From Fibrobacterota bacterium (GTDB taxonomy: Bacteria; Fibrobacterota; Fibrobacteria; UBA11236; JADFYW01), in the NCBI GenBank assembly GCA_042567505.1, contig JBHPJW010000008.1, positions 1,515 to 65,514 of the forward strand: DNA of 64,000 bases. Direction: 5' to 3'. The position numbers were made by a program, and so were the translations under genes. Of the stretch, positions 4,127 to 12,149 are shown one piece after another. The notes beneath the pieces are model-generated. The model made no database searches. It was not told the DNA's origin and worked only from the letters and a program-made list of their open reading frames with translations. Position 1 is the first letter of the stretch. The number at the start of each line of letters is the position of its first letter.

Positions 4127-5998
4127 TTAATTCGGCATGATTTCGGCATTCACCGGAATGTACCCTGTTTTTTCATCCAACAGCCGGGCCAGTTGCACCA
4201 GCCGGATAAATTCAGCCCGGTAACCTTCATCGTCCTTTCCCCTGGCTTTTTTTGCCATGTCAATAATTCCCGAATAACTAATAGTACCCTTTTGTTTGGA
4301 ACCCCTGAGCAGCATTCCAAAACCGGCCACTGCGGCTGAAAAACGGAAGTCCGCGGACATGTCTGAAAGCTTGACTACTCTGTCCTTCAGGGGCTTGACA
4401 ATCAATTTGCTCACCGTGTCCTGCGGGGACTTGTAGCGGAACTTCACGGTAAGCAATTCGCTTGAATGTATATTATTAAGGGCATTGGGGTTCTGGTACT
4501 TGAGGGCGTCTATCCCGGGAAGTTCAATCTCAACTCCCGCCGGGACGACTTGATACAGCGCTGTGACCGTGTGTCCAGCCCCGAGTTCGCCCGCGTCTTT
4601 TTTGTCATTATTGAAATCTTCGGCTTTCAACATCCTGTTTTCGTATCCGATTAGGCGGTATGCCTTTACCCGGTCGGGATTGAATTCCACCTGGATTTTC
4701 ACATCTTTGGCTATAGTCATCAGAGTGCCGCCTATTTCATTTATCAGCACCTTTTTCGCCTCCATGATATTGTCTATGTACGCGTAATTGCCGTTGCCCC
4801 TGCCGGCCAGTTTCTCCATTTTAGAGTCTTTATAATTACCCCTGCCGAATCCCAGGACGGTCAGGTAAACACCGGTTTTCCTCTTCTGTTCTATCATGCG
4901 CACCAGTTCGCCGTCGCTGGAAACGCCGAGGTTGAAGTCGCCGTCGGTGGCCAGTATCACCCGGTTGTTGCCGTTTTTCATAAAAGTATCCCATGCCATT
5001 TTATAAGCCAGCGTAATCCCGGCGCCGCCGGCAGTTGAGCCTCCGGCCCGCAGCTTTTCCAGGGTCTCCAGGATTATCATTTTCTTGTCTCCCGAGGTGG
5101 GAGGAAGGACTGTCCCGGCCGCGCCGGCGTACACCGCAATGGATACCATGTCTTCCGGGCGCAGTTGGTCTACCAGCAGCTTCATGGCCTTTTTGAGCAA
5201 GGGGAGCTTGCCCGGCGAATTCATGGAACCGGACACGTCCAGCAGGAACACCAGGTTGCTGGGGGGCAGGTCTTTTTTGTCCATGCGCTTGCCCTGCAGC
5301 CCGATATGCACCAGTTTATGCCGGGACTCCCAGGGACATTCAGATACTTCGGCGGTGATGGAAAACGGGTCCGCGCTTTTTGGCTGGGGATAGTCGTAAC
5401 TGAAATAATTGATAAATTCTTCAATTCTTACCGCGTCCTGAGGAGGCATCCGGCCGGCGTTTAAGAACCTTCTCACATTGGCATAGGATGCCGCGTCCAC
5501 GTCAATGGAAAACGTTGATAACGGATTTCTAAGGGTCTCGCGAAAGGCGTTTTCATAAATCCGGTCGTATTGCTCTGTGTTGTGCCGGACCACCGGATAG
5601 GAATTATCAGCATACCCCATGCCGCCGAACCGGGGAGCGGGAGCGCCCATGGCCGATCTTTTCGCCATCATGGGAGCGCGAGCTTTTCCTGACCGTCCCC
5701 TGACCTTGGCTGGAGCAGATGCCGGACCCACCATCAATGGTTCCGCCGGAATTCCTTCAACGGCCCGCACTTCAGCCATGTGTTCCCGTTCTTCCGGTTG
5801 CGGCGCGGGAGTTGCTTTTTTTTCAGTCCGCTGCTCCGGAGCGGGGACCTGGGCCGTCTGTTCCTTTTTGGTTTCCGGAACAGCAGTCAGCTCGGTCATG
5901 TTCTGTTTGCCTGCGGCCTGCTCTTCCACCTGGGAGGACTTTTTAAAACATCCCGGGAGCAGGATGAAGATAAATGACAGGGTAATTAAGGTTTTCAT
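4127..5998 (-). CDS. von Willebrand factor A domain lipoprotein (YfbK-like architecture)
   Basis: 623-aa ORF. It has a lipobox-like N-terminus (ILLPGCF) and a Pro/Ala/Glu-rich linker. The vWA MIDAS region reads LVFLLDVSGSM...ILATDGDFN, followed by a long conserved C-terminal extension typical of YfbK-type proteins. Confidence 0.8.
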   Translation of the reverse strand: MKTLITLSFIFILLPGCFKKSSQVEEQAAGKQNMTELTAVPETKKEQTAQVPAPEQRTEKKATPAPQPEEREHMAEVRAVEGIPAEPLMVGPASAPAKVRGRSGKARAPMMAKRSAMGAPAPRFGGMGYADNSYPVVRHNTEQYDRIYENAFRETLRNPLSTFSIDVDAASYANVRRFLNAGRMPPQDAVRIEEFINYFSYDYPQPKSADPFSITAEVSECPWESRHKLVHIGLQGKRMDKKDLPPSNLVFLLDVSGSMNSPGKLPLLKKAMKLLVDQLRPEDMVSIAVYAGAAGTVLPPTSGDKKMIILETLEKLRAGGSTAGGAGITLAYKMAWDTFMKNGNNRVILATDGDFNLGVSSDGELVRMIEQKRKTGVYLTVLGFGRGNYKDSKMEKLAGRGNGNYAYIDNIMEAKKVLINEIGGTLMTIAKDVKIQVEFNPDRVKAYRLIGYENRMLKAEDFNNDKKDAGELGAGHTVTALYQVVPAGVEIELPGIDALKYQNPNALNNIHSSELLTVKFRYKSPQDTVSKLIVKPLKDRVVKLSDMSADFRFSAAVAGFGMLLRGSKQKGTISYSGIIDMAKKARGKDDEGYRAEFIRLVQLARLLDEKTGYIPVNAEIMPN

Positions 5999-6378: not shown

Positions 6379-6972
6379 TTAGGACAATCGCGTGAGAATC
6401 TCTTCCAGATTCATCCCCAGCTTCACGCGGATCTGCTGCACGTGCTTTTCAATGGAAGTTTTAAAAGCCTCCGCGATTTCCTCTTTGGTAAAGCCTCTCA
6501 ACCGCATTCTGATGATGTACTTCTCCATGTGGGTCAATTTTTCCCATCGGGAATCTGTCTGGAGCTGTATCTCAAGAAGATCATGGATGTCCTCGGGGAA
6601 GAACGCCTTTCCTTCCGCGGCCATTACCACGGCTCTGGTGGGATCGTCATACTCAGCCTTGTATAAAAAGCTGATAGCGCCCATTTTAAAACTTTTTATC
6701 AAATCGTCTCTGTGGATGGAAGCCATGATCACGGGCACGTTTAAGGTCTTTCTTGTCCATTCAAGCAGATCAAAACCAACCGGTTCAGCGCCGAACCACA
6801 CATTCATGATTATAACCGAAGGGGATAAGACGGATACGTTCCCCAGGTATTCTTCAGCTGTTAAGAAATTACCGATTATTTTAATCCGCGGCTCCCTGGA
6901 AAGCATGTTCTCCCATACTTCTATTACCTTGGGGTGGTCTTCGCAGATTACAACATTGATATCTTCAGACAT
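6379..6972 (-). CDS. NarL/LuxR-family response-regulator-like protein with atypical receiver
   Basis: 197-aa ORF with an N-terminal receiver-like fold (VVICEDHP..., IMAS, FLYK) and a C-terminal LuxR helix-turn-helix (LTHMEKYIIRMRLRGFTKEEIAEAFKTSIEKHVQQIRVKLG). The position expected for the phospho-acceptor Asp reads Asn (VIIMNVWFG). Confidence 0.8.
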   Translation of the reverse strand: MSEDINVVICEDHPKVIEVWENMLSREPRIKIIGNFLTAEEYLGNVSVLSPSVIIMNVWFGAEPVGFDLLEWTRKTLNVPVIMASIHRDDLIKSFKMGAISFLYKAEYDDPTRAVVMAAEGKAFFPEDIHDLLEIQLQTDSRWEKLTHMEKYIIRMRLRGFTKEEIAEAFKTSIEKHVQQIRVKLGMNLEEILTRLS

Positions 6973-7201: not shown

Positions 7202-7373
7202 ACCTAGCCGATAAATTCTAAAAATAATCCCTGGCCGTCAAGATGATACAGGATATCCGGGAGAGAAGGTTGTTGAGAAAGATTCCGGCGTTTGCCGGAA
7301 GAACAGCAGTAGTTTGCTCCGGCATGGGCATGAACTAGGAAATTTCCCGCCTTCACGGGGAATAACAATGCCA

Positions 7374-10300
7374 CTATTTTGGGATTAATGATGCGTCGCC
7401 GCCGAATTTTTTGAATTTCTTGAACTGTTTGGCGGCTCCTTTTTTATCACCGGCCTTAACCAGTGCCGTGCCAAGCAGCAGATAACCCATGGGCCGTTCC
7501 GGGCAGCGGGAAATAGCACCTTCTGAAGCTATTTTCGCGTGATTGTGATCCTTCCTGGCCAGGCCGGATTTTGCTGAAACCAGGAGCAGGTCGCATGAAA
7601 AGGGGTGTTTCTTAAGCGCTGTTTGGATCAGCTCAACAGCCTGGTCAGTCTTGCCGAGTTTGAGCAGTACTTCGGTCCGGGCCGCCTGGGCCCAGGGGCC
7701 GACCCTGCTGTTTTCCTTCATCTTCCTAGCCCACTTTTGCGCTTTGTTTGTTTTGCCGATCTTTAAATAATACCGTACCAGTCGCAGTATCACTTCAGGG
7801 TACCATTTCATTTCCAGGGATTTAAGCAGGTGATGTTCCACCGCCTCGTTCTTCTTCTCTTTTTCAAAGACCAGGGCAAGCCCAAGATAGCCCCGGGACT
7901 GCCACAGAGTATCCTGGAATTTCCTCAACTCATGAAAGATATCCTTTGCCTTTTCCAGTTTGCCCAATTCTGTCCTGCAAATGCCAATCATGTATTTAAT
8001 CTCCGGATTCTGGACGTCAAATACCAGGCCCCGGTTGAACTCATCCTCGGCATCGGAGAAGTCTCCAAGTTTATATTGACGCAGGCCGGAGACAAAGAAG
8101 AATTCAGCATTGTCTCTTTCTTGCTGGGGGACGGTTTTCAGTATTTCCTTGGCCTTATCCAGGTCCCCCTGGAAAAGATGAGCCTTAGCCAGTATAATTT
8201 TGACTTTCGGGCTTTTCTTATATTCAGATTTGCTGATTATGCCTATTGCCGAGTCCGGCCGGTTTTTTCTGATGTACAAATCCGCCAGTTGGGAAACGGC
8301 TGTGGGAGAGGAAGCCTGTGCCTTGTAATTCCTGGCGTATTGTTTTATGGCGGTTTCTTTCTGTCCCAGGCGAGAAAGACAGTCAGCGTAGATCTCACGG
8401 TATTTTGAGGAGAGCTTGGCTTTTACCGGGCCCAGGGCCTTTACCGTTTCCTTCAGCTCATCAGAGCTATAAAAAATGCCTCCAAGGAATTCGGAATAGT
8501 TCACATTTTCAGGAGCGTATTTCAATGCTTGCAGCATGTGGTCAATAGCGATGCCGGACTGGTTGTTTTTCATGCAGGTTTTCGCCAACAGGAAATGGGC
8601 TTCATGAAAGTCTTCCTTTTCCGCGATGACATTTTTTAACAGGGCTTCCGCCCGCGTGGTTTGGTTCACCTCCAGGTAGAGGCCGGCCAGGTGGAATTTC
8701 AGCTTGATCCCCTTATACCCCAGATCAAGGGCGTTCTGGAGGGCGGCCCTGGCCCTGGCTTTTTTCCCCTGCTTGAGACTCAATCGGCCGTATTCTTTCC
8801 AGACCACAGCGGCTTTTCCAGGTTTTCCCTGGGCCCGGTACGCGTCTGTGAGCGTGACGGTCAGGGTTGAATCCGTAGGCTTAAGTTCCCGGGCCCTTTC
8901 ATAGAAAAGCAGAGCCTTATTCAACTTTTTCGAGTTGTGCAGCAATCTGCCCAGTTTAACGTTGTACTTAAAATCTCCCGAAAATTGTTCATGGTATTTT
9001 AAATAAAGGTCCAGGGCTTTTTTTTGTTCTCCGTTTTTTTCATACAGCATTGCCAGTTCCCTGGCAGCTTTGTGGTCGTTGGGTTTAAGATGCAGGTATT
9101 TCCAGCGGTATTTTCTGGCCTTGGGGTGATCGTCATCAAACAGGCCGGCCAGCTCAAGCAAGGCGGCATGGTCCTCCGGGCGCTTCTTTATGAATTGTTC
9201 CAGCTTGGCGGCCAGCTCTTTCTTCTGCAAGGGATCGCGGTAATGCTTGATGAGGACAATCAGTACGTCCTCGGACCCGGGGTGCCGCTTCAGAAGAGCC
9301 TCATATTCCTCCATTGCTTTATTACGCTTGTCCAGCTTTACCAGAGCCTGGCATTGCCTCTTCCAGTCAGACACTCTGATTCTTTTCCGGTCGAGCTTCT
9401 TAAAATATAACAGGGACTGTTGGTATTGTTTCAACTGGTAATGACCCAGCGCCAGCCGCCTGTTTGAATTAAAATTCATTTGTTTTAACTGCTTCAGGAA
9501 GTTGACGGATTTATCATACTTCCCCCTCTTGAAATAAAGAATGCCTCCGGCCTCCAGAAGCTGCTGCTGTTCTGGTTCCTTTGAAACGCGCTTATTAATT
9601 TCCTTGAGAAAGGCGCTGGTGTCGAGCTTGATCTTTTTGCCTTTGATCACAGAAGAGATTTTTTTCCAGAAGGCTTTTTCCGCGGCTGCTTTCCTTTTCT
9701 TCTCCGCCTCAACCCTGGCGATGCTGTCTCTGCGTGCTTGTTCCAACATTGCCTTTTCCGCTTTGGCAATACTGTCCTTGCGCGCTTTTTCCGCCCGGGC
9801 GATACTATCCTTGCGTGCTTTCTCAACGCGGGCAATGCTGTCCTTACGGGTCTTTTCCGCACGGGCGATACTGTCTCTGCGCGCTTTTTCAACCCTGGCT
9901 ATACTGTCCTCACGGGCCTTTTTAACTCGGGCAATACTATCCCTTCTGGCTTTTTCCACACGCGCGATGCTGTCTTTGCGCGCCTTCTCAACTCTGGCAG
10001 CGCTGTCTTTTCTGGCCTGTTCCAGCCTGGCAAATTTTTCAACTTCAGCTATACTGTCCCTTCTGGCCTTTTCCGCTCTGGCAAGGCTGTCCTTGCGCGC
10101 TTTATCCACTTTAGCGATGCTGTCCTGAATAGCTTTTTCCAAACGCGCGAGGCTGTCTTTCCGGATTTTTTCCACCCGGGCAACGCTGTCCTGAATTGCT
10201 TTTTGAATTTTGACGATACTTTGTTTCAGATTTCTGACCCAAGTAAGTTTTTCCTTTATGGCCGGGGGTGCGTTTGGGTCTGCCCCCAGTTTCTCAACCA

Positions 10301-10781
10301 GACCGCCATAGTCGTCAAGATTATTTTCAATTCCTCTGTCTTCCAATTTTTTCAAGTATTTCAAGCCAAGAACCATGTCGCTCTGGTTAAGGGTAAACAG
10401 GGATTTCAGTACCTTGAGTTGGGGCCCTTCTTTTCCGGCGTCCTCCAGGGCCCTTAAATACCTGGACAGGACCAGATAATCATCCGGTTTTATCTTCAGC
10501 GCTTTTTCATAGGTCTCAATGGTTTTATTCCAGTTTTCCAGGAAGGAGTATGCTTCCGCCAGGCCCAGCAGGGCCTCGATGCTTCCTGGTTTTGACCTCA
10601 GGGCGGTTTGAAACGCTTCTATGGCCTGTTCAAGTTCATCCTGTTCCAGAAACTCACTGCCCCTGTCATACCAGGTCTTATAATCACCGGACACAGCCTG
10701 GGGCCCGGAAAAGACCGGCCACGACAGGCAACTGAGGCATATCAACGCGATCAGAGAGAATTTTTGCTGGTTTGTCATCAT
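7374..10781 (-). CDS. Secreted TPR-repeat protein with central 11-residue tandem-repeat (coiled-coil-like) segment
   Basis: 1,135-aa ORF with a signal peptide (LIALICLSCLSWPVFSG). TPR-like 34-aa periodicity occurs at the N-terminus and through the C-terminal ~750 aa. Residues ~193-357 are EKARKDSIARV-type repeats. Confidence 0.8.
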   Translation of the reverse strand: MMTNQQKFSLIALICLSCLSWPVFSGPQAVSGDYKTWYDRGSEFLEQDELEQAIEAFQTALRSKPGSIEALLGLAEAYSFLENWNKTIETYEKALKIKPDDYLVLSRYLRALEDAGKEGPQLKVLKSLFTLNQSDMVLGLKYLKKLEDRGIENNLDDYGGLVEKLGADPNAPPAIKEKLTWVRNLKQSIVKIQKAIQDSVARVEKIRKDSLARLEKAIQDSIAKVDKARKDSLARAEKARRDSIAEVEKFARLEQARKDSAARVEKARKDSIARVEKARRDSIARVKKAREDSIARVEKARRDSIARAEKTRKDSIARVEKARKDSIARAEKARKDSIAKAEKAMLEQARRDSIARVEAEKKRKAAAEKAFWKKISSVIKGKKIKLDTSAFLKEINKRVSKEPEQQQLLEAGGILYFKRGKYDKSVNFLKQLKQMNFNSNRRLALGHYQLKQYQQSLLYFKKLDRKRIRVSDWKRQCQALVKLDKRNKAMEEYEALLKRHPGSEDVLIVLIKHYRDPLQKKELAAKLEQFIKKRPEDHAALLELAGLFDDDHPKARKYRWKYLHLKPNDHKAARELAMLYEKNGEQKKALDLYLKYHEQFSGDFKYNVKLGRLLHNSKKLNKALLFYERARELKPTDSTLTVTLTDAYRAQGKPGKAAVVWKEYGRLSLKQGKKARARAALQNALDLGYKGIKLKFHLAGLYLEVNQTTRAEALLKNVIAEKEDFHEAHFLLAKTCMKNNQSGIAIDHMLQALKYAPENVNYSEFLGGIFYSSDELKETVKALGPVKAKLSSKYREIYADCLSRLGQKETAIKQYARNYKAQASSPTAVSQLADLYIRKNRPDSAIGIISKSEYKKSPKVKIILAKAHLFQGDLDKAKEILKTVPQQERDNAEFFFVSGLRQYKLGDFSDAEDEFNRGLVFDVQNPEIKYMIGICRTELGKLEKAKDIFHELRKFQDTLWQSRGYLGLALVFEKEKKNEAVEHHLLKSLEMKWYPEVILRLVRYYLKIGKTNKAQKWARKMKENSRVGPWAQAARTEVLLKLGKTDQAVELIQTALKKHPFSCDLLLVSAKSGLARKDHNHAKIASEGAISRCPERPMGYLLLGTALVKAGDKKGAAKQFKKFKKFGGDASLIPK
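9711..10205 (-). repeat. About 14 in-frame tandem copies of a 33-bp unit (11-aa EKARKDSIARV repeat)
   Basis: 33-nt periodicity is directly visible, for example GCGATACTATCCTTGCGTGCTTTCTCAACGCGG / GCAATGCTGTCCTTACGGGTCTTTTCCGCACGG / GCGATACTGTCTCTGCGCGCTTTTTCAACCCTG. The units differ mostly at synonymous positions. Two units carry 5-6-aa insertions. Confidence 0.9.
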
Positions 10782-11129
10782 AATTGCAGGGCAATCCCGT
10801 GCCCCCTAAAATTAGGGTGAAGGGGGATTTTTAGCAAGGTAAAGTTGGGTAATTATGGCCCTAGTGTTACGTCCAGTCAATTTTTTCATGTTCTTCCTGA
10901 TTCCGGACAAGCCGGAATGACTTTTCCAGGGCATATAACATGAAAAAACTTATTGGATAGTTCACTAGTATATGAATATTCTCCCGGAAAGCGGCTTTAA
11001 ATTATATTTGATGGATATGCCTTAGATGTTGTTATTTCCCGCAACATAAGAGGGAACAAGGGGATATGCGGAAGTGCCTTCATGTAGGCGTGAAAGCGGT
11101 ATGATGCAACCAGTAAAAAAGGAGCGGAA

Positions 11130-12149
11130 GTGAGAAATCAATTACATCATCATATATATGCCCCACTGTTTCTCCTGATGACCATGGCATTCTCCATGCT
11201 TGCGGCGCAGGCCGGAATACTCTGGAAATTGGATTGGGAAGATGGCCGGAAAGAGGCCGCCATCGGTTATACGCGTTTGGAGGAAGAGGAAGGGGGCGAG
11301 ATCACCGTTGTCGATAATCCGGTAAAGGATGCCAACAACGGTTCGGAAAAAGCAGCCGCATGTAATGTGGGCGGAAAGCGTGCCGAAATCAGCAGCCAGA
11401 GGGTGCCCACGGAGGGAAAGACCTATGTTTATAAATGGTCCTACCTCGTCCCCGAGAACTACAGCGCTTCCGGCCTGGTATGTCAGTGGAAAACCTGGCC
11501 TTGCGGCGACCATGATGGTTATGCTGATGAGGTCTGCTACACATGCGGCATTTTTAACCACGTGCGCATTCAAAACAACGGCGACGAATTTCATTTCCAA
11601 TGGAGGGCCGAACCGGACTGCGATGAGATTTCTCTTCCTACCAATCGCGGATCCTGGGTCACGTTTCAGCAGGAGATAAAGTGGACTAACGGCAATGACG
11701 GTTATTACAAGCTGTGGATGAACGGAGAAGTGGTTAAGGAAGACAGTAACCTGAAGACCCTTATGGATCGATTCGAGCCGGGCACTTGCGATCTTTACTT
11801 TGCAGTGGGTCTTTATTCCACTGTCAGCGCTCTTCCGGTCTACATCGACAACGTTGAAATCTGGGACACCTCCGGAGTACAGGGTATCATCGGAGAAGAT
11901 TCCCCCACTTCCATCATAAGGCAGGGCAGACAGTCAGTATATTCGCCGACCGTCCCTTTTGAACCCCTCAACACGCCCTGCAGGTGCAGTTGGTGCGTGG
12001 ATGAGCCCGCAACGATACTTGATGTCAAGGGCGTCACGCAGGGAACGCTGGTTCCCGGCCTAGAGGGCGGAAAGAGTGCTCAGGGCCGGCTGCCCAACAA
12101 AAGGTATATCCTGAGGCAAAGAGCGCCGGACAGTCTGAAAGCAAAATGA
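11130..12149 (+). CDS. Secreted concanavalin-like jelly-roll protein, possibly polysaccharide-lyase-like
   Basis: 339-aa ORF with a GTG start after AGGAG and a signal peptide (LFLLMTMAFSMLAAQA). The sequence grammar (GGKRAEIS..., YVYKWSYLVP, WVTFQQEIKWTNGNDGYYKLWMNGEVV, YFAVGLYS) resembles Pfam Polysacc_lyase-type proteins. The function is tentative. Confidence 0.45.
   Translation: MRNQLHHHIYAPLFLLMTMAFSMLAAQAGILWKLDWEDGRKEAAIGYTRLEEEEGGEITVVDNPVKDANNGSEKAAACNVGGKRAEISSQRVPTEGKTYVYKWSYLVPENYSASGLVCQWKTWPCGDHDGYADEVCYTCGIFNHVRIQNNGDEFHFQWRAEPDCDEISLPTNRGSWVTFQQEIKWTNGNDGYYKLWMNGEVVKEDSNLKTLMDRFEPGTCDLYFAVGLYSTVSALPVYIDNVEIWDTSGVQGIIGEDSPTSIIRQGRQSVYSPTVPFEPLNTPCRCSWCVDEPATILDVKGVTQGTLVPGLEGGKSAQGRLPNKRYILRQRAPDSLKAK

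What the first reader, a model, noticed from the sequence alone, without database searches (positions are those of the whole stretch)
9711..10205. About 14 tandem 33-bp units encoding an 11-residue (hendecad) EKARKDSIARV repeat inside a TPR protein
Seen: there is strict 33-nt periodicity over about 500 nt, in frame, between the N-terminal and C-terminal TPR blocks of a signal-peptide-bearing 1,135-aa protein. The units are highly similar at protein level but differ at many synonymous positions. Two units carry 5-6-residue insertions (EKFARLEQARKDS, EKAMLEQARRDS).
Established: 11-residue periodicity is typical of amphipathic 11/3 helices (apolipoproteins, alpha-synuclein, group-3 LEA proteins, perilipins) and of right-handed coiled coils.
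Inference: this is a long charged spacer or membrane/lipid-binding rod under purifying selection rather than a recent slippage expansion. Copy number could still vary between strains.
Basis: partly seen in the sequence, partly recalled or inferred. Interest (0 to 1): 0.5.

Follow-up and report, generated by a model that had tools for sequence, protein, structure and literature searches.

The report
Helical linker carrying 14 glycosylation motifs
An exported scaffold protein of an uncultured Fibrobacterota bacterium has an old, conserved helical spacer of 14 eleven-residue units, each holding the three-residue motif that the sister phylum Bacteroidota uses to attach sugars to proteins, so the spacer is probably a sugar-coated rod and hints that this glycosylation system reaches beyond Bacteroidota.

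Summary
The units are 72% identical as protein, while their synonymous sites are randomised, so the array is old and under purifying selection.

D, S and the following I/L/V/A are invariant in all 14 units. That triplet is the Bacteroidota general O-glycosylation sequon D-(S/T)-(A/I/L/M/T/V).

The same hendecad word recurs in exported envelope proteins of Fibrobacterota, Gemmatimonadota and Bacteroidota. It sits where periplasmic linkers sit: barrel to OmpA_C, before TonB_C, PorP to SPOR. The same word in a Prevotella TPR protein is an experimentally mapped glycosylation site.

AlphaFold2 predicts long helices. Motif spacings across relatives (11, 18, 22, 29, 33, 40) keep one helical phase.

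Best reading: a periplasmic alpha-helical spacer displaying a ladder of O-glycosylation sites. Lipid binding is not supported. Glycosylation in Fibrobacterota is unproven and the transferase is unknown.

The parts
7374..10781 (-). CDS of the 1135-aa exported TPR protein (P0001)
   Evidence: ORF list and translation; TPR families in Pfam; homologues in Fibrobacterota
10692..10781 (-). N-terminal signal-peptide-like segment (about aa 1-30)
   Evidence: Basic n-region followed by a hydrophobic stretch in the translation; helix 4-16 followed by a low-confidence segment in the model. Inferred; no dedicated predictor was run.
10338..10682 (-). N-terminal TPR module (aa 34-148)
   Evidence: Pfam TPR_19, TPR_2 and TPR_16 at 35-101; helix pairs with pLDDT 80-92
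10200..10232 (-). Degenerate 15th unit (aa 184-194) with Q-S-I in place of D-S-I
   Evidence: Translation and the in-phase position one unit before unit 1
9705..10199 (-). Array of 14 hendecad units (aa 195-359), each with the sequon D-S-(I/L/V/A)
   Evidence: D, S and the A two residues after S are invariant in 14 of 14 units.
10017..10034 (-). 6-residue insertion between units 5 and 6; coincides with a predicted helix break (aa 248-249)
   Evidence: D-S spacing of 17; helices 173-247 and 250-338
9738..9752 (-). 5-residue insertion between units 13 and 14; lies in the predicted non-helical stretch aa 339-352
   Evidence: D-S spacing of 16; DSSP of the model
9642..9704 (-). Basic helical tail after the array (aa 360-380), leading into the C-terminal TPR block
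   Evidence: Helix 353-380 with pLDDT rising to 72-84
7407..9620 (-). C-terminal TPR superhelix (aa 388-1125). This is the part shared with the large paralogous family in the order.
   Evidence: Pfam; model pLDDT 80-93; matches to aa 650-1135 in 29 of 41 related genomes
10852..10880 (-). Promoter-like site about 70 nt upstream of the start codon
   Evidence: Consensus scan, 10 of 12 matches. This is a consensus match only.
7283..7300 (-). Terminator-like hairpin about 75 nt after the stop codon
   Evidence: Consensus scan. This is a consensus match only.

Best explanation
The 14 units form a long alpha-helical rod: about 165 residues in the array and about 208 with its flanks. That is up to roughly 25-30 nm if straight, in three segments broken at the two insertions. 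The rod holds the small N-terminal TPR module away from the large C-terminal TPR scaffold in the periplasm or cell envelope. Each unit carries one D-S-(I/L/V/A) triplet, the acceptor motif of the general O-glycosylation system known from Bacteroidota. With 11 residues per three turns, the 14 serines line up on one side of the helix about 1.65 nm apart. The rod would therefore be decorated with a regular row of oligosaccharides, a 'sequon ladder', that stiffens, solubilises and protects the spacer. Shown here: the periodicity, the purifying selection, the sequon in every unit, export, predicted helicity, and recurrence of the same unit as a periplasmic linker in three phyla. Inferred: that the serines are actually glycosylated in this organism, and what the glycans do.
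For: (1) All 14 units match the sequon, and D, S and the A two residues after S are invariant while neighbouring positions vary.
(2) D and S are the only nearly invariant columns across 26 array proteins from other lineages, and D-S-x-A is invariant or nearly so in the Gemmatimonadota porin family.
(3) A scoring matrix that ignores the three sequon positions still finds D in 69-72% and S in 54-64% of matching windows in other proteins, and I/L/V/M in 85% of them at the next position. The alternative class is E-A-L, which is helix-compatible but lacks the sequon.
(4) The sequon and its preference for D-S-(L/I/V) are documented in PMC10897501 and PMC12871550. The peptide S-R-Q-D-S-I-A-Y-A-E-K of the P. 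intermedia TPR protein BWX39_07160 is glycosylated at that Ser (Fig. 10c and supplement).
(5) Export: P0001 has a signal peptide. 83 of 99 full-length array proteins have a signal- or TM-like N-terminus, against 30% of all ORFs in this genome by the same rule.
(6) Periplasmic linker position: between an OM barrel and OmpA_C (L078), before TonB_C (P0040), between PorP/SprF and SPOR (P0064), N-terminal to 8-stranded barrels (P0067, L032), and with Amidase_3 or PD40+SPOR.
(7) Helix: the model has helices 173-247, 250-338 and 353-380. The same repeat in P0067 is one helix, 57-120, with pLDDT 72-92.
(8) Sequon spacings across relatives peak at 11, 18, 22, 29, 33, 40, 51 and 58. These are sums of 11s and 7s, about 3.63 residues per turn, so the sites keep one helical phase.
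(9) In this genome the sequon is 1.9 times denser in exported-like than in cytoplasmic-like ORFs (bootstrap 1.58-2.27). The reversed motif gives 1.35 and the E-variant 0.85. The review PMC12871550 also notes sequon enrichment in Fibrobacterota.
Against: No glycoprotein has been demonstrated in Fibrobacterota or Gemmatimonadota by this system, within the library searched. The transferase is undiscovered, so its presence in this genome cannot be tested. Ser is almost never replaced by Thr in the arrays, although the sequon allows Thr. That would fit a structural role for Ser just as well. The genome-wide enrichment is driven by a subset of large proteins; the medians are 2.3 versus 1.7 per 1000 aa. 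It also rests on crude ORF calling and a crude signal-peptide rule. pLDDT in the P0001 array itself is only 40-60. The relatives with 900-residue helical regions (L100) are far longer than a periplasm is wide, so 'periplasmic spacer' cannot be the whole story for the family. Shared descent of a linker module within the FCB group could explain the phyletic pattern without glycosylation.
Confidence: 0.5

Rival explanations
1. The array is an unglycosylated helical rod: either a homo-oligomeric hendecad coiled coil or a charge-stabilised single helix. D-S-hydrophobic-A is conserved for structural reasons, such as polar inter-helix contacts or capping, and the match to the sequon is coincidental.
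For: 11-residue periodicity with in-phase spacings of 11, 18, 29 and 40. An I-V-(Arg) seam with 3-4-4 spacing. 1.67 acid-to-base i/i+4 pairs per unit. Helical models. Ser is hardly ever exchanged for Thr.
Against: A coiled-coil core of Ala, Ser, Val and Arg is unusually polar, and the net charge is +20 over 165 residues. Hydrophobic content of 17% is high for a single charged helix. This reading does not explain why exactly the sequon triplet is the most conserved part across different architectures and phyla, nor why arrays are confined to exported proteins of the FCB group. The same word is a proven glycosylation site in Prevotella.
Confidence: 0.3
2. The array is an envelope-polymer binding module, for example for peptidoglycan or lipopolysaccharide, with one contact site per unit.
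For: It co-occurs with OmpA_C, SPOR, Amidase_3 and TonB_C. In P0001 the array is strongly basic, at +20.
Against: The Gemmatimonadota and Bacteroidota versions are charge-neutral. The array occupies linker positions rather than replacing the binding domains. No similarity to any known binding repeat was found in Pfam, NCBIfam or PDB.
Confidence: 0.08
3. The array is a lipid or membrane-binding amphipathic 11/3 helix of the apolipoprotein, synuclein, LEA or perilipin type.
For: 11-residue periodicity. The hydrophobic moment peaks near 98-100 degrees.
Against: Mean hydrophobicity is -0.10 and the moment is about 0.30. Half of the residues are charged. The apolar arc is narrow and contains Arg and Ser. 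Across phyla the module sits as a soluble periplasmic linker.
Confidence: 0.05
4. The array is an assembly artefact or neutral low-complexity expansion with no function.
For: It comes from a metagenome-assembled genome, and repeats are prone to collapse in assembly.
Against: The units differ at 33% of nucleotides, so they are not collapsible identical copies. Synonymous sites are randomised while the protein sequence is kept. A paralogue and distant orthologues carry the same motif.
Confidence: 0.02

Closest known systems
[quoted passage not shown]
   Same: An exported TPR protein with the same word (R-Q-D-S-I-A-x-A-E-K) directly before a TPR region. The sequon type D-S-I is among those most used.
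   Different: Known substrates carry scattered sites. A tandem, phase-locked array of 14 sites on a helix has not been described in the papers read. The organism is Fibrobacterota, where the system is only suspected (PMC12871550).
Periplasm-spanning spacers: TolA domain II, the Pro-rich rod of TonB, the OmpA hinge, Lpp (from established knowledge; not tested here)
   Same: An extended, repetitive, charged segment joining envelope-anchored domains. In P0040 and L078 the hendecads sit exactly where the TonB rod and the OmpA hinge sit.
   Different: No sequence relationship. The conserved D-S-hydrophobic triplet has no counterpart in those spacers.
Hendecad (11/3) coiled coils such as tetrabrachion or the Omp-alpha rod (from established knowledge)
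   Same: 11-residue periodicity, and mixing of 11- and 7-residue increments.
   Different: Core positions are not consistently hydrophobic. The oligomeric state is untested.
ER/K single alpha-helices
   Same: About 50% charged residues and many i/i+4 opposite-charge pairs.
   Different: 17% Ile/Val/Leu, invariant D-S and Ala, and strict 11-residue units rather than E/K blocks.
11-mer amphipathic lipid-binding repeats (apolipoproteins, alpha-synuclein, group-3 LEA, perilipins)
   Same: Period of 11 residues.
   Different: Weak amphipathicity, a polar 'apolar' face, and a periplasmic linker context.
Envelope TPR proteins of Fibrobacter succinogenes (FSU_2397/2398), reported in complexes with OmpA, fibro-slime proteins and cellulases (PMC6851124)
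   Same: Signal-peptide-bearing, very large TPR proteins of the same phylum. P0001 belongs to an expanded paralogous TPR family in its order.
   Different: Orthology to FSU_2397/2398 could not be tested because no sequence was available. Nothing is known about repeats or glycosylation in those proteins from the text read.

Membership tests
Substrate of Bacteroidota-type general O-glycosylation | Protein leaves the cytoplasm (signal peptide or periplasmic domain) | tested here: met
   Signal-peptide-like N-terminus. 83 of 99 array proteins are exported-like, against a 30% baseline.
Substrate of Bacteroidota-type general O-glycosylation | Sequon D-(S/T)-(A/I/L/M/T/V) | tested here: met
   14 of 14 units: D-S-I ten times, D-S-L twice, D-S-V once and D-S-A once. 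Motif definition from PMC10897501 and PMC12871550.
Substrate of Bacteroidota-type general O-glycosylation | The organism possesses the glycosylation machinery | not testable with these tools
   The transferase, ligase and core flippase are undiscovered (PMC12871550). There is indirect support only: sequon density is 1.9-fold higher in exported-like ORFs, with controls at 0.85-1.35.
Substrate of Bacteroidota-type general O-glycosylation | Glycan detected on the Ser | not testable with these tools
   This needs mass spectrometry. It has been shown only for the same word in a Prevotella TPR protein.
Hendecad coiled coil | 11-residue (11/3) periodicity | tested here: met
   in-phase spacings across relatives.
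Hendecad coiled coil | Hydrophobic a/d/e/h core | tested here: inconclusive
   The stripe near the moment direction is Val, Arg, Ser, Ile and Ala. This is more polar than known cores, although an I-V-Arg 3-4-4 seam is possible.
Hendecad coiled coil | Oligomerisation | not testable with these tools
   Only single-chain prediction is available.
Lipid-binding amphipathic 11-mer repeats | Broad apolar face and high hydrophobic moment | tested here: not met
   Mean hydrophobicity -0.10, moment about 0.30, 50% charged residues.
ER/K single alpha-helix | Dense i/i+4 opposite charges with very few hydrophobic residues | tested here: inconclusive
   2.5 i/i+4 pairs per unit, but 17% Ile/Val/Leu.
TPR proteins | Significant matches to TPR profile families | tested here: met
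   TPR_19 at 3.6e-40, TPR_2 at 2.5e-37 and others. No equivalog in NCBIfam reaches its cut-off.
Any curated repeat or domain family covering the hendecads | Match of aa 195-359 to a Pfam, NCBIfam or PDB entry | tested here: not met
   No family covers the array. The best PDB hit has E 0.81. The Atlas gave no usable hit.

The most novel reading that the evidence does not exclude
Sequon-directed general O-glycosylation is not confined to Bacteroidota. It operates across the FCB group, including Fibrobacterota and Gemmatimonadota. These bacteria share an undescribed linker module: a helical hendecad 'sequon ladder' that presents glycans at fixed ~1.65 nm steps on one face of periplasmic rods joining outer-membrane, peptidoglycan-binding and TPR scaffold domains. 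Unit number and period are tuned freely while the sequon and helical phase are kept.
Probability: 0.45. Interest if true: 0.75.

Novelty: new variant of a known kind. Interest (0 to 1): 0.58.

Why it matters
The function, origin and phyletic extent of the Bacteroidota O-glycosylation system are open questions. The 2025 review (PMC12871550) names Fibrobacterota as the place to look. A module whose only strongly conserved feature is the sequon, repeated up to 14-20 times and phase-locked on a helix, gives three things:

- An ideal mass-spectrometry and genetic reporter for whether the system exists outside Bacteroidota.
- A natural substrate to fish for the still unknown transferase.
- A concrete hypothesis for one function of the glycans: building stiff, protease-resistant periplasmic spacers.

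For Fibrobacterota, it bears on how the large envelope TPR scaffolds implicated in cellulose degradation are built. If the serines turn out to be unmodified, the finding is still an undescribed, widely distributed helical linker repeat without a database model.

Tried and rejected
- Lipid-binding helix: rejected on hydrophobicity and moment.
- Recent slippage or assembly collapse: rejected because synonymous sites are randomised.
- Known repeat family: Pfam, NCBIfam and PDB by sequence gave nothing for the array, and the protein Atlas returned no usable hit.
- Gene neighbourhood: a VWA/YfbK protein, an orphan response regulator, a polysaccharide lyase and ligA gave no functional link. The gene looks monocistronic.
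- Other proteins of this genome with dense arrays: only P0001 and its paralogue P0002 have them.
- Hits P0090 and P0147 in the representative search are unrelated low-complexity proteins and were left out.
- Literature search for the word itself found only the Prevotella glycopeptide. Searches for hendecad plus periplasm, for Fibrobacter glycoproteins, and for sequon reports in Gemmatimonadota or Fibrobacterota gave nothing beyond the review. Two papers (Coyne 2013; the F. johnsoniae glycoproteome) are not held.
- Oligomeric state could not be addressed because there is no multimer prediction.
- Orthology to F. succinogenes FSU_2397/2398 could not be tested.
- Genome G027 (unpublished) enters only the tally.
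Full report
**1. Observation**

The window holds one long ORF on the minus strand, 7374-10781, of 1135 aa. Tandem Repeats Finder reports periods of 33, 66 and 99 nt at 9751-10033. The protein self-identity is 0.59 at lag 11 and 0.61 at lag 22; most other lags give 0.10 or less, and lags congruent to 5 or 6 modulo 11 give 0.18-0.32.

Anchoring on the D-S pair gives 14 units, aa 195-359, window 9705-10199. Eleven spacings are 11 residues. One more degenerate unit precedes the array.

Pfam finds only TPR families, at aa 35-135 and about 400-1125. The N-terminus looks like a signal peptide. The two plus-strand ORFs over the array are by-products of the repeat.

**2. Age and selection**

Units are 72% identical as protein and 67% as DNA, with pooled pN 0.18 and pS 0.84. 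Where two units have the same residue, they use the same codon in 45% of cases. The expectation from random codon choice is 37-44%. The array is therefore old, and its protein sequence is maintained by selection. D, S and the Ala two residues after S are invariant in all 14 units.

**3. Organism and family**

Named relatives are Fibrobacterota metagenome-assembled genomes. The window's own genome is a 3.2-Mb assembly, 66% complete.

The C-terminal TPR part matches many paralogues. There are 11 matches in this genome, and matches in 29 of 41 related genomes, with open frames of up to 4181 aa. The unpublished genome G027 is part of that tally only.

Dense arrays occur in only two proteins of this genome: P0001 and the paralogue P0002.

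Orthologues at 30% identity (P0004-P0007) keep the core word inside units of 29 and 18 residues. Larger relatives have 40-residue Ala/Lys/Glu-rich units with one core word each. The closest same-family orthologue (L004) has a single unit.

P0004 and P0006 are 98.5% identical in their flanks but carry 14 versus 8 units. Copy number therefore does vary between close relatives, with the caveat that these are metagenome assemblies.

**4. What is conserved is a triplet and a phase**

Across all relatives the spacing between successive core motifs peaks at 11, 18, 22, 29, 33, 40, 51 and 58. These are sums of 11s with at most one 7, or about 3.63 residues per turn. The motif therefore stays on one side of a nearly untwisted helix.

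A scoring matrix built from the units with the three central positions masked still finds D (69-72%), S (54-64%) and I/L/V/M (85%) at those positions in other proteins. The alternative is E-A-L, a helix-compatible unit without the motif.

**5. Same unit in other envelope proteins**

A pattern scan of one genome per species and a full profile-free search of 1.8 billion representatives find the same hendecad almost only in Fibrobacterota, Gemmatimonadota and Bacteroidota.

The architectures are:

- signal peptide, hendecads, then an 8-stranded OM barrel (Gemmatimonadota, three tandem genes in L032);
- a lipoprotein-like N-terminus, hendecads, then TonB_C (P0040);
- PorP/SprF barrel, hendecads, then two SPOR domains (P0064);
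- OM barrel, hendecads, then OmpA_C (L078);
- CarboxypepD_reg followed, after the array, by OmpA_C (L072);
- Amidase_3 (L049);
- TPR, PD40 and SPOR (L071);
- a ~700-aa Bacteroidota family with no Pfam domain.

These are the positions of known periplasmic linkers, such as the OmpA hinge and the TonB rod (established knowledge). By one simple rule, 83 of 99 full-length array proteins have a signal- or TM-like N-terminus, against 30% of all ORFs of this genome. No Pfam or NCBIfam model and no PDB sequence covers the repeat.

**6. Structure**

AlphaFold2 on P0001 gives confident TPR blocks. The repeat region forms helices 173-247, 250-338 and 353-380. The breaks fall at the two insertions, but pLDDT there is only 40-60.

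For the Gemmatimonadota porin P0067, the hendecads form a single helix, 57-120, at pLDDT 72-92, in front of an 8-stranded barrel.

The P0001 array is 50% charged with net charge +20. Its mean hydrophobicity is -0.10 and its hydrophobic moment is about 0.30. At 11/3 geometry the narrow apolar stripe is Val, Arg, Ser, Ile and Ala, with the Ser about 50 degrees from the moment direction. This does not look like a lipid-binding amphipathic helix. As a coiled-coil core it would be unusually polar.

**7. The sequon**

A full-text search for the core word found one paper. In Prevotella intermedia, the peptide S-R-Q-D-S-I-A-Y-A-E-K of the TPR protein BWX39_07160 is O-glycosylated at that Ser (PMC10897501, Fig. 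10c and supplement).

The Bacteroidota general O-glycosylation system modifies Ser or Thr in D-(S/T)-(A/I/L/M/T/V) on non-cytoplasmic proteins. D-S-(L/I/V) is preferred, and Glu in place of Asp is not tolerated in B. fragilis (PMC10897501, PMC12871550). All 14 units of P0001 satisfy this motif. It is precisely the part that is conserved across architectures and phyla.

The review states that the transferase is undiscovered, and that Fibrobacterota show a similar enrichment of the motif and should be examined.

In this genome, excluding the two array proteins, the sequon occurs 6.17 times per 1000 aa in exported-like ORFs and 3.24 times in cytoplasmic-like ORFs. The ratio is 1.9 (bootstrap 1.58-2.27). 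The reversed motif gives 1.35 and the Glu variant 0.85. The effect comes largely from a subset of big exported proteins, and my gene and signal calls are crude, so this is supportive, not decisive.

**8. Reading**

The best-supported account is a periplasmic or envelope alpha-helical spacer that also serves as a regular array of O-glycosylation sites. In the studied Bacteroidota each glycan is about 1.5-1.7 kDa. Fourteen sites would add some 20-25 kDa of glycan along one side of a rod up to about 25 nm long (inference).

I put about 0.85 on the helical spacer and about 0.5 on actual glycosylation.

The main rival is an unglycosylated rod or coiled coil in which the triplet is structural. The near absence of Thr at the Ser position fits that rival. 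The giant relatives with 900-residue helical regions show that simply spanning the periplasm cannot be the only role in the family.

**9. Novelty**

Sequon-bearing exported proteins and helical periplasmic spacers are both known. A tandem, phase-locked sequon array on a hendecad helix, shared by three FCB phyla and lacking any database model, was not found in the literature available to me.

I reached the sequon reading from the literature before seeing that note. It agrees with my observations in Gemmatimonadota porins, but it is not independent evidence.

Noticed in passing
L032:7842-11296 (Gemmatimonadaceae contig DATBHD010000024.1): Three tandem paralogous genes encode small outer-membrane beta-barrel proteins. 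Each has an N-terminal run of 5-6 sequon hendecads. They lie directly after a sigma-54-type response regulator and a histidine kinase.
   Followed up: partly
L033, L035, L039, L041, L048 and others (Bacteroidota); also L037 and L053 on contigs labelled Bifidobacterium: A family of about 700 aa has an N-terminal domain of about 190 aa, sequon arrays over about 350 residues (periods 18, 25, 29, 32) and a conserved C-terminal domain. It has no Pfam or NCBIfam match. The 'Bifidobacterium' contigs carrying it are probably mis-binned Bacteroidota DNA.
   Followed up: partly
L100 (G017:C1), ORF of 4181 aa; also L103 and L105: Giant relatives of the TPR family have about 900 residues of Ala/Lys/Glu-rich 40-residue units resembling TolA domain II. 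Each unit holds one D-S-L-A word. This is far longer than a periplasm is wide.
   Followed up: partly
L004 (G004:C62), ORF of 783 aa: The closest same-family orthologue has one single unit between its N-terminal and C-terminal TPR blocks. It lacks the stretch corresponding to about aa 197-575 of P0001.
   Followed up: partly
Own genome G000: C168, C192, C179, C178 (two ORFs), C180, C4: Large exported-like ORFs of 977-1881 aa carry 26-39 sequons each and drive the genome-wide enrichment. Their nature was not examined.
   Followed up: no
window 9541-10128 (+) and 9738-10457 (+): Antisense ORFs of 195 and 239 aa lie across the array. They are open only because the repeat lacks stop codons on the opposite strand, and they are not genes.
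   Followed up: partly
window 4127-5998 (-) and 6379-6972 (-): A VWA/YfbK-type protein and an orphan response-regulator receiver lie downstream of the TPR gene, separated from it by about 400 nt containing a terminator-like hairpin. No link to the array was found.
   Followed up: no
window 11130-12149 (+): A divergently oriented gene has a Polysacc_lyase domain (Pfam E 3.7e-21).
   Followed up: no
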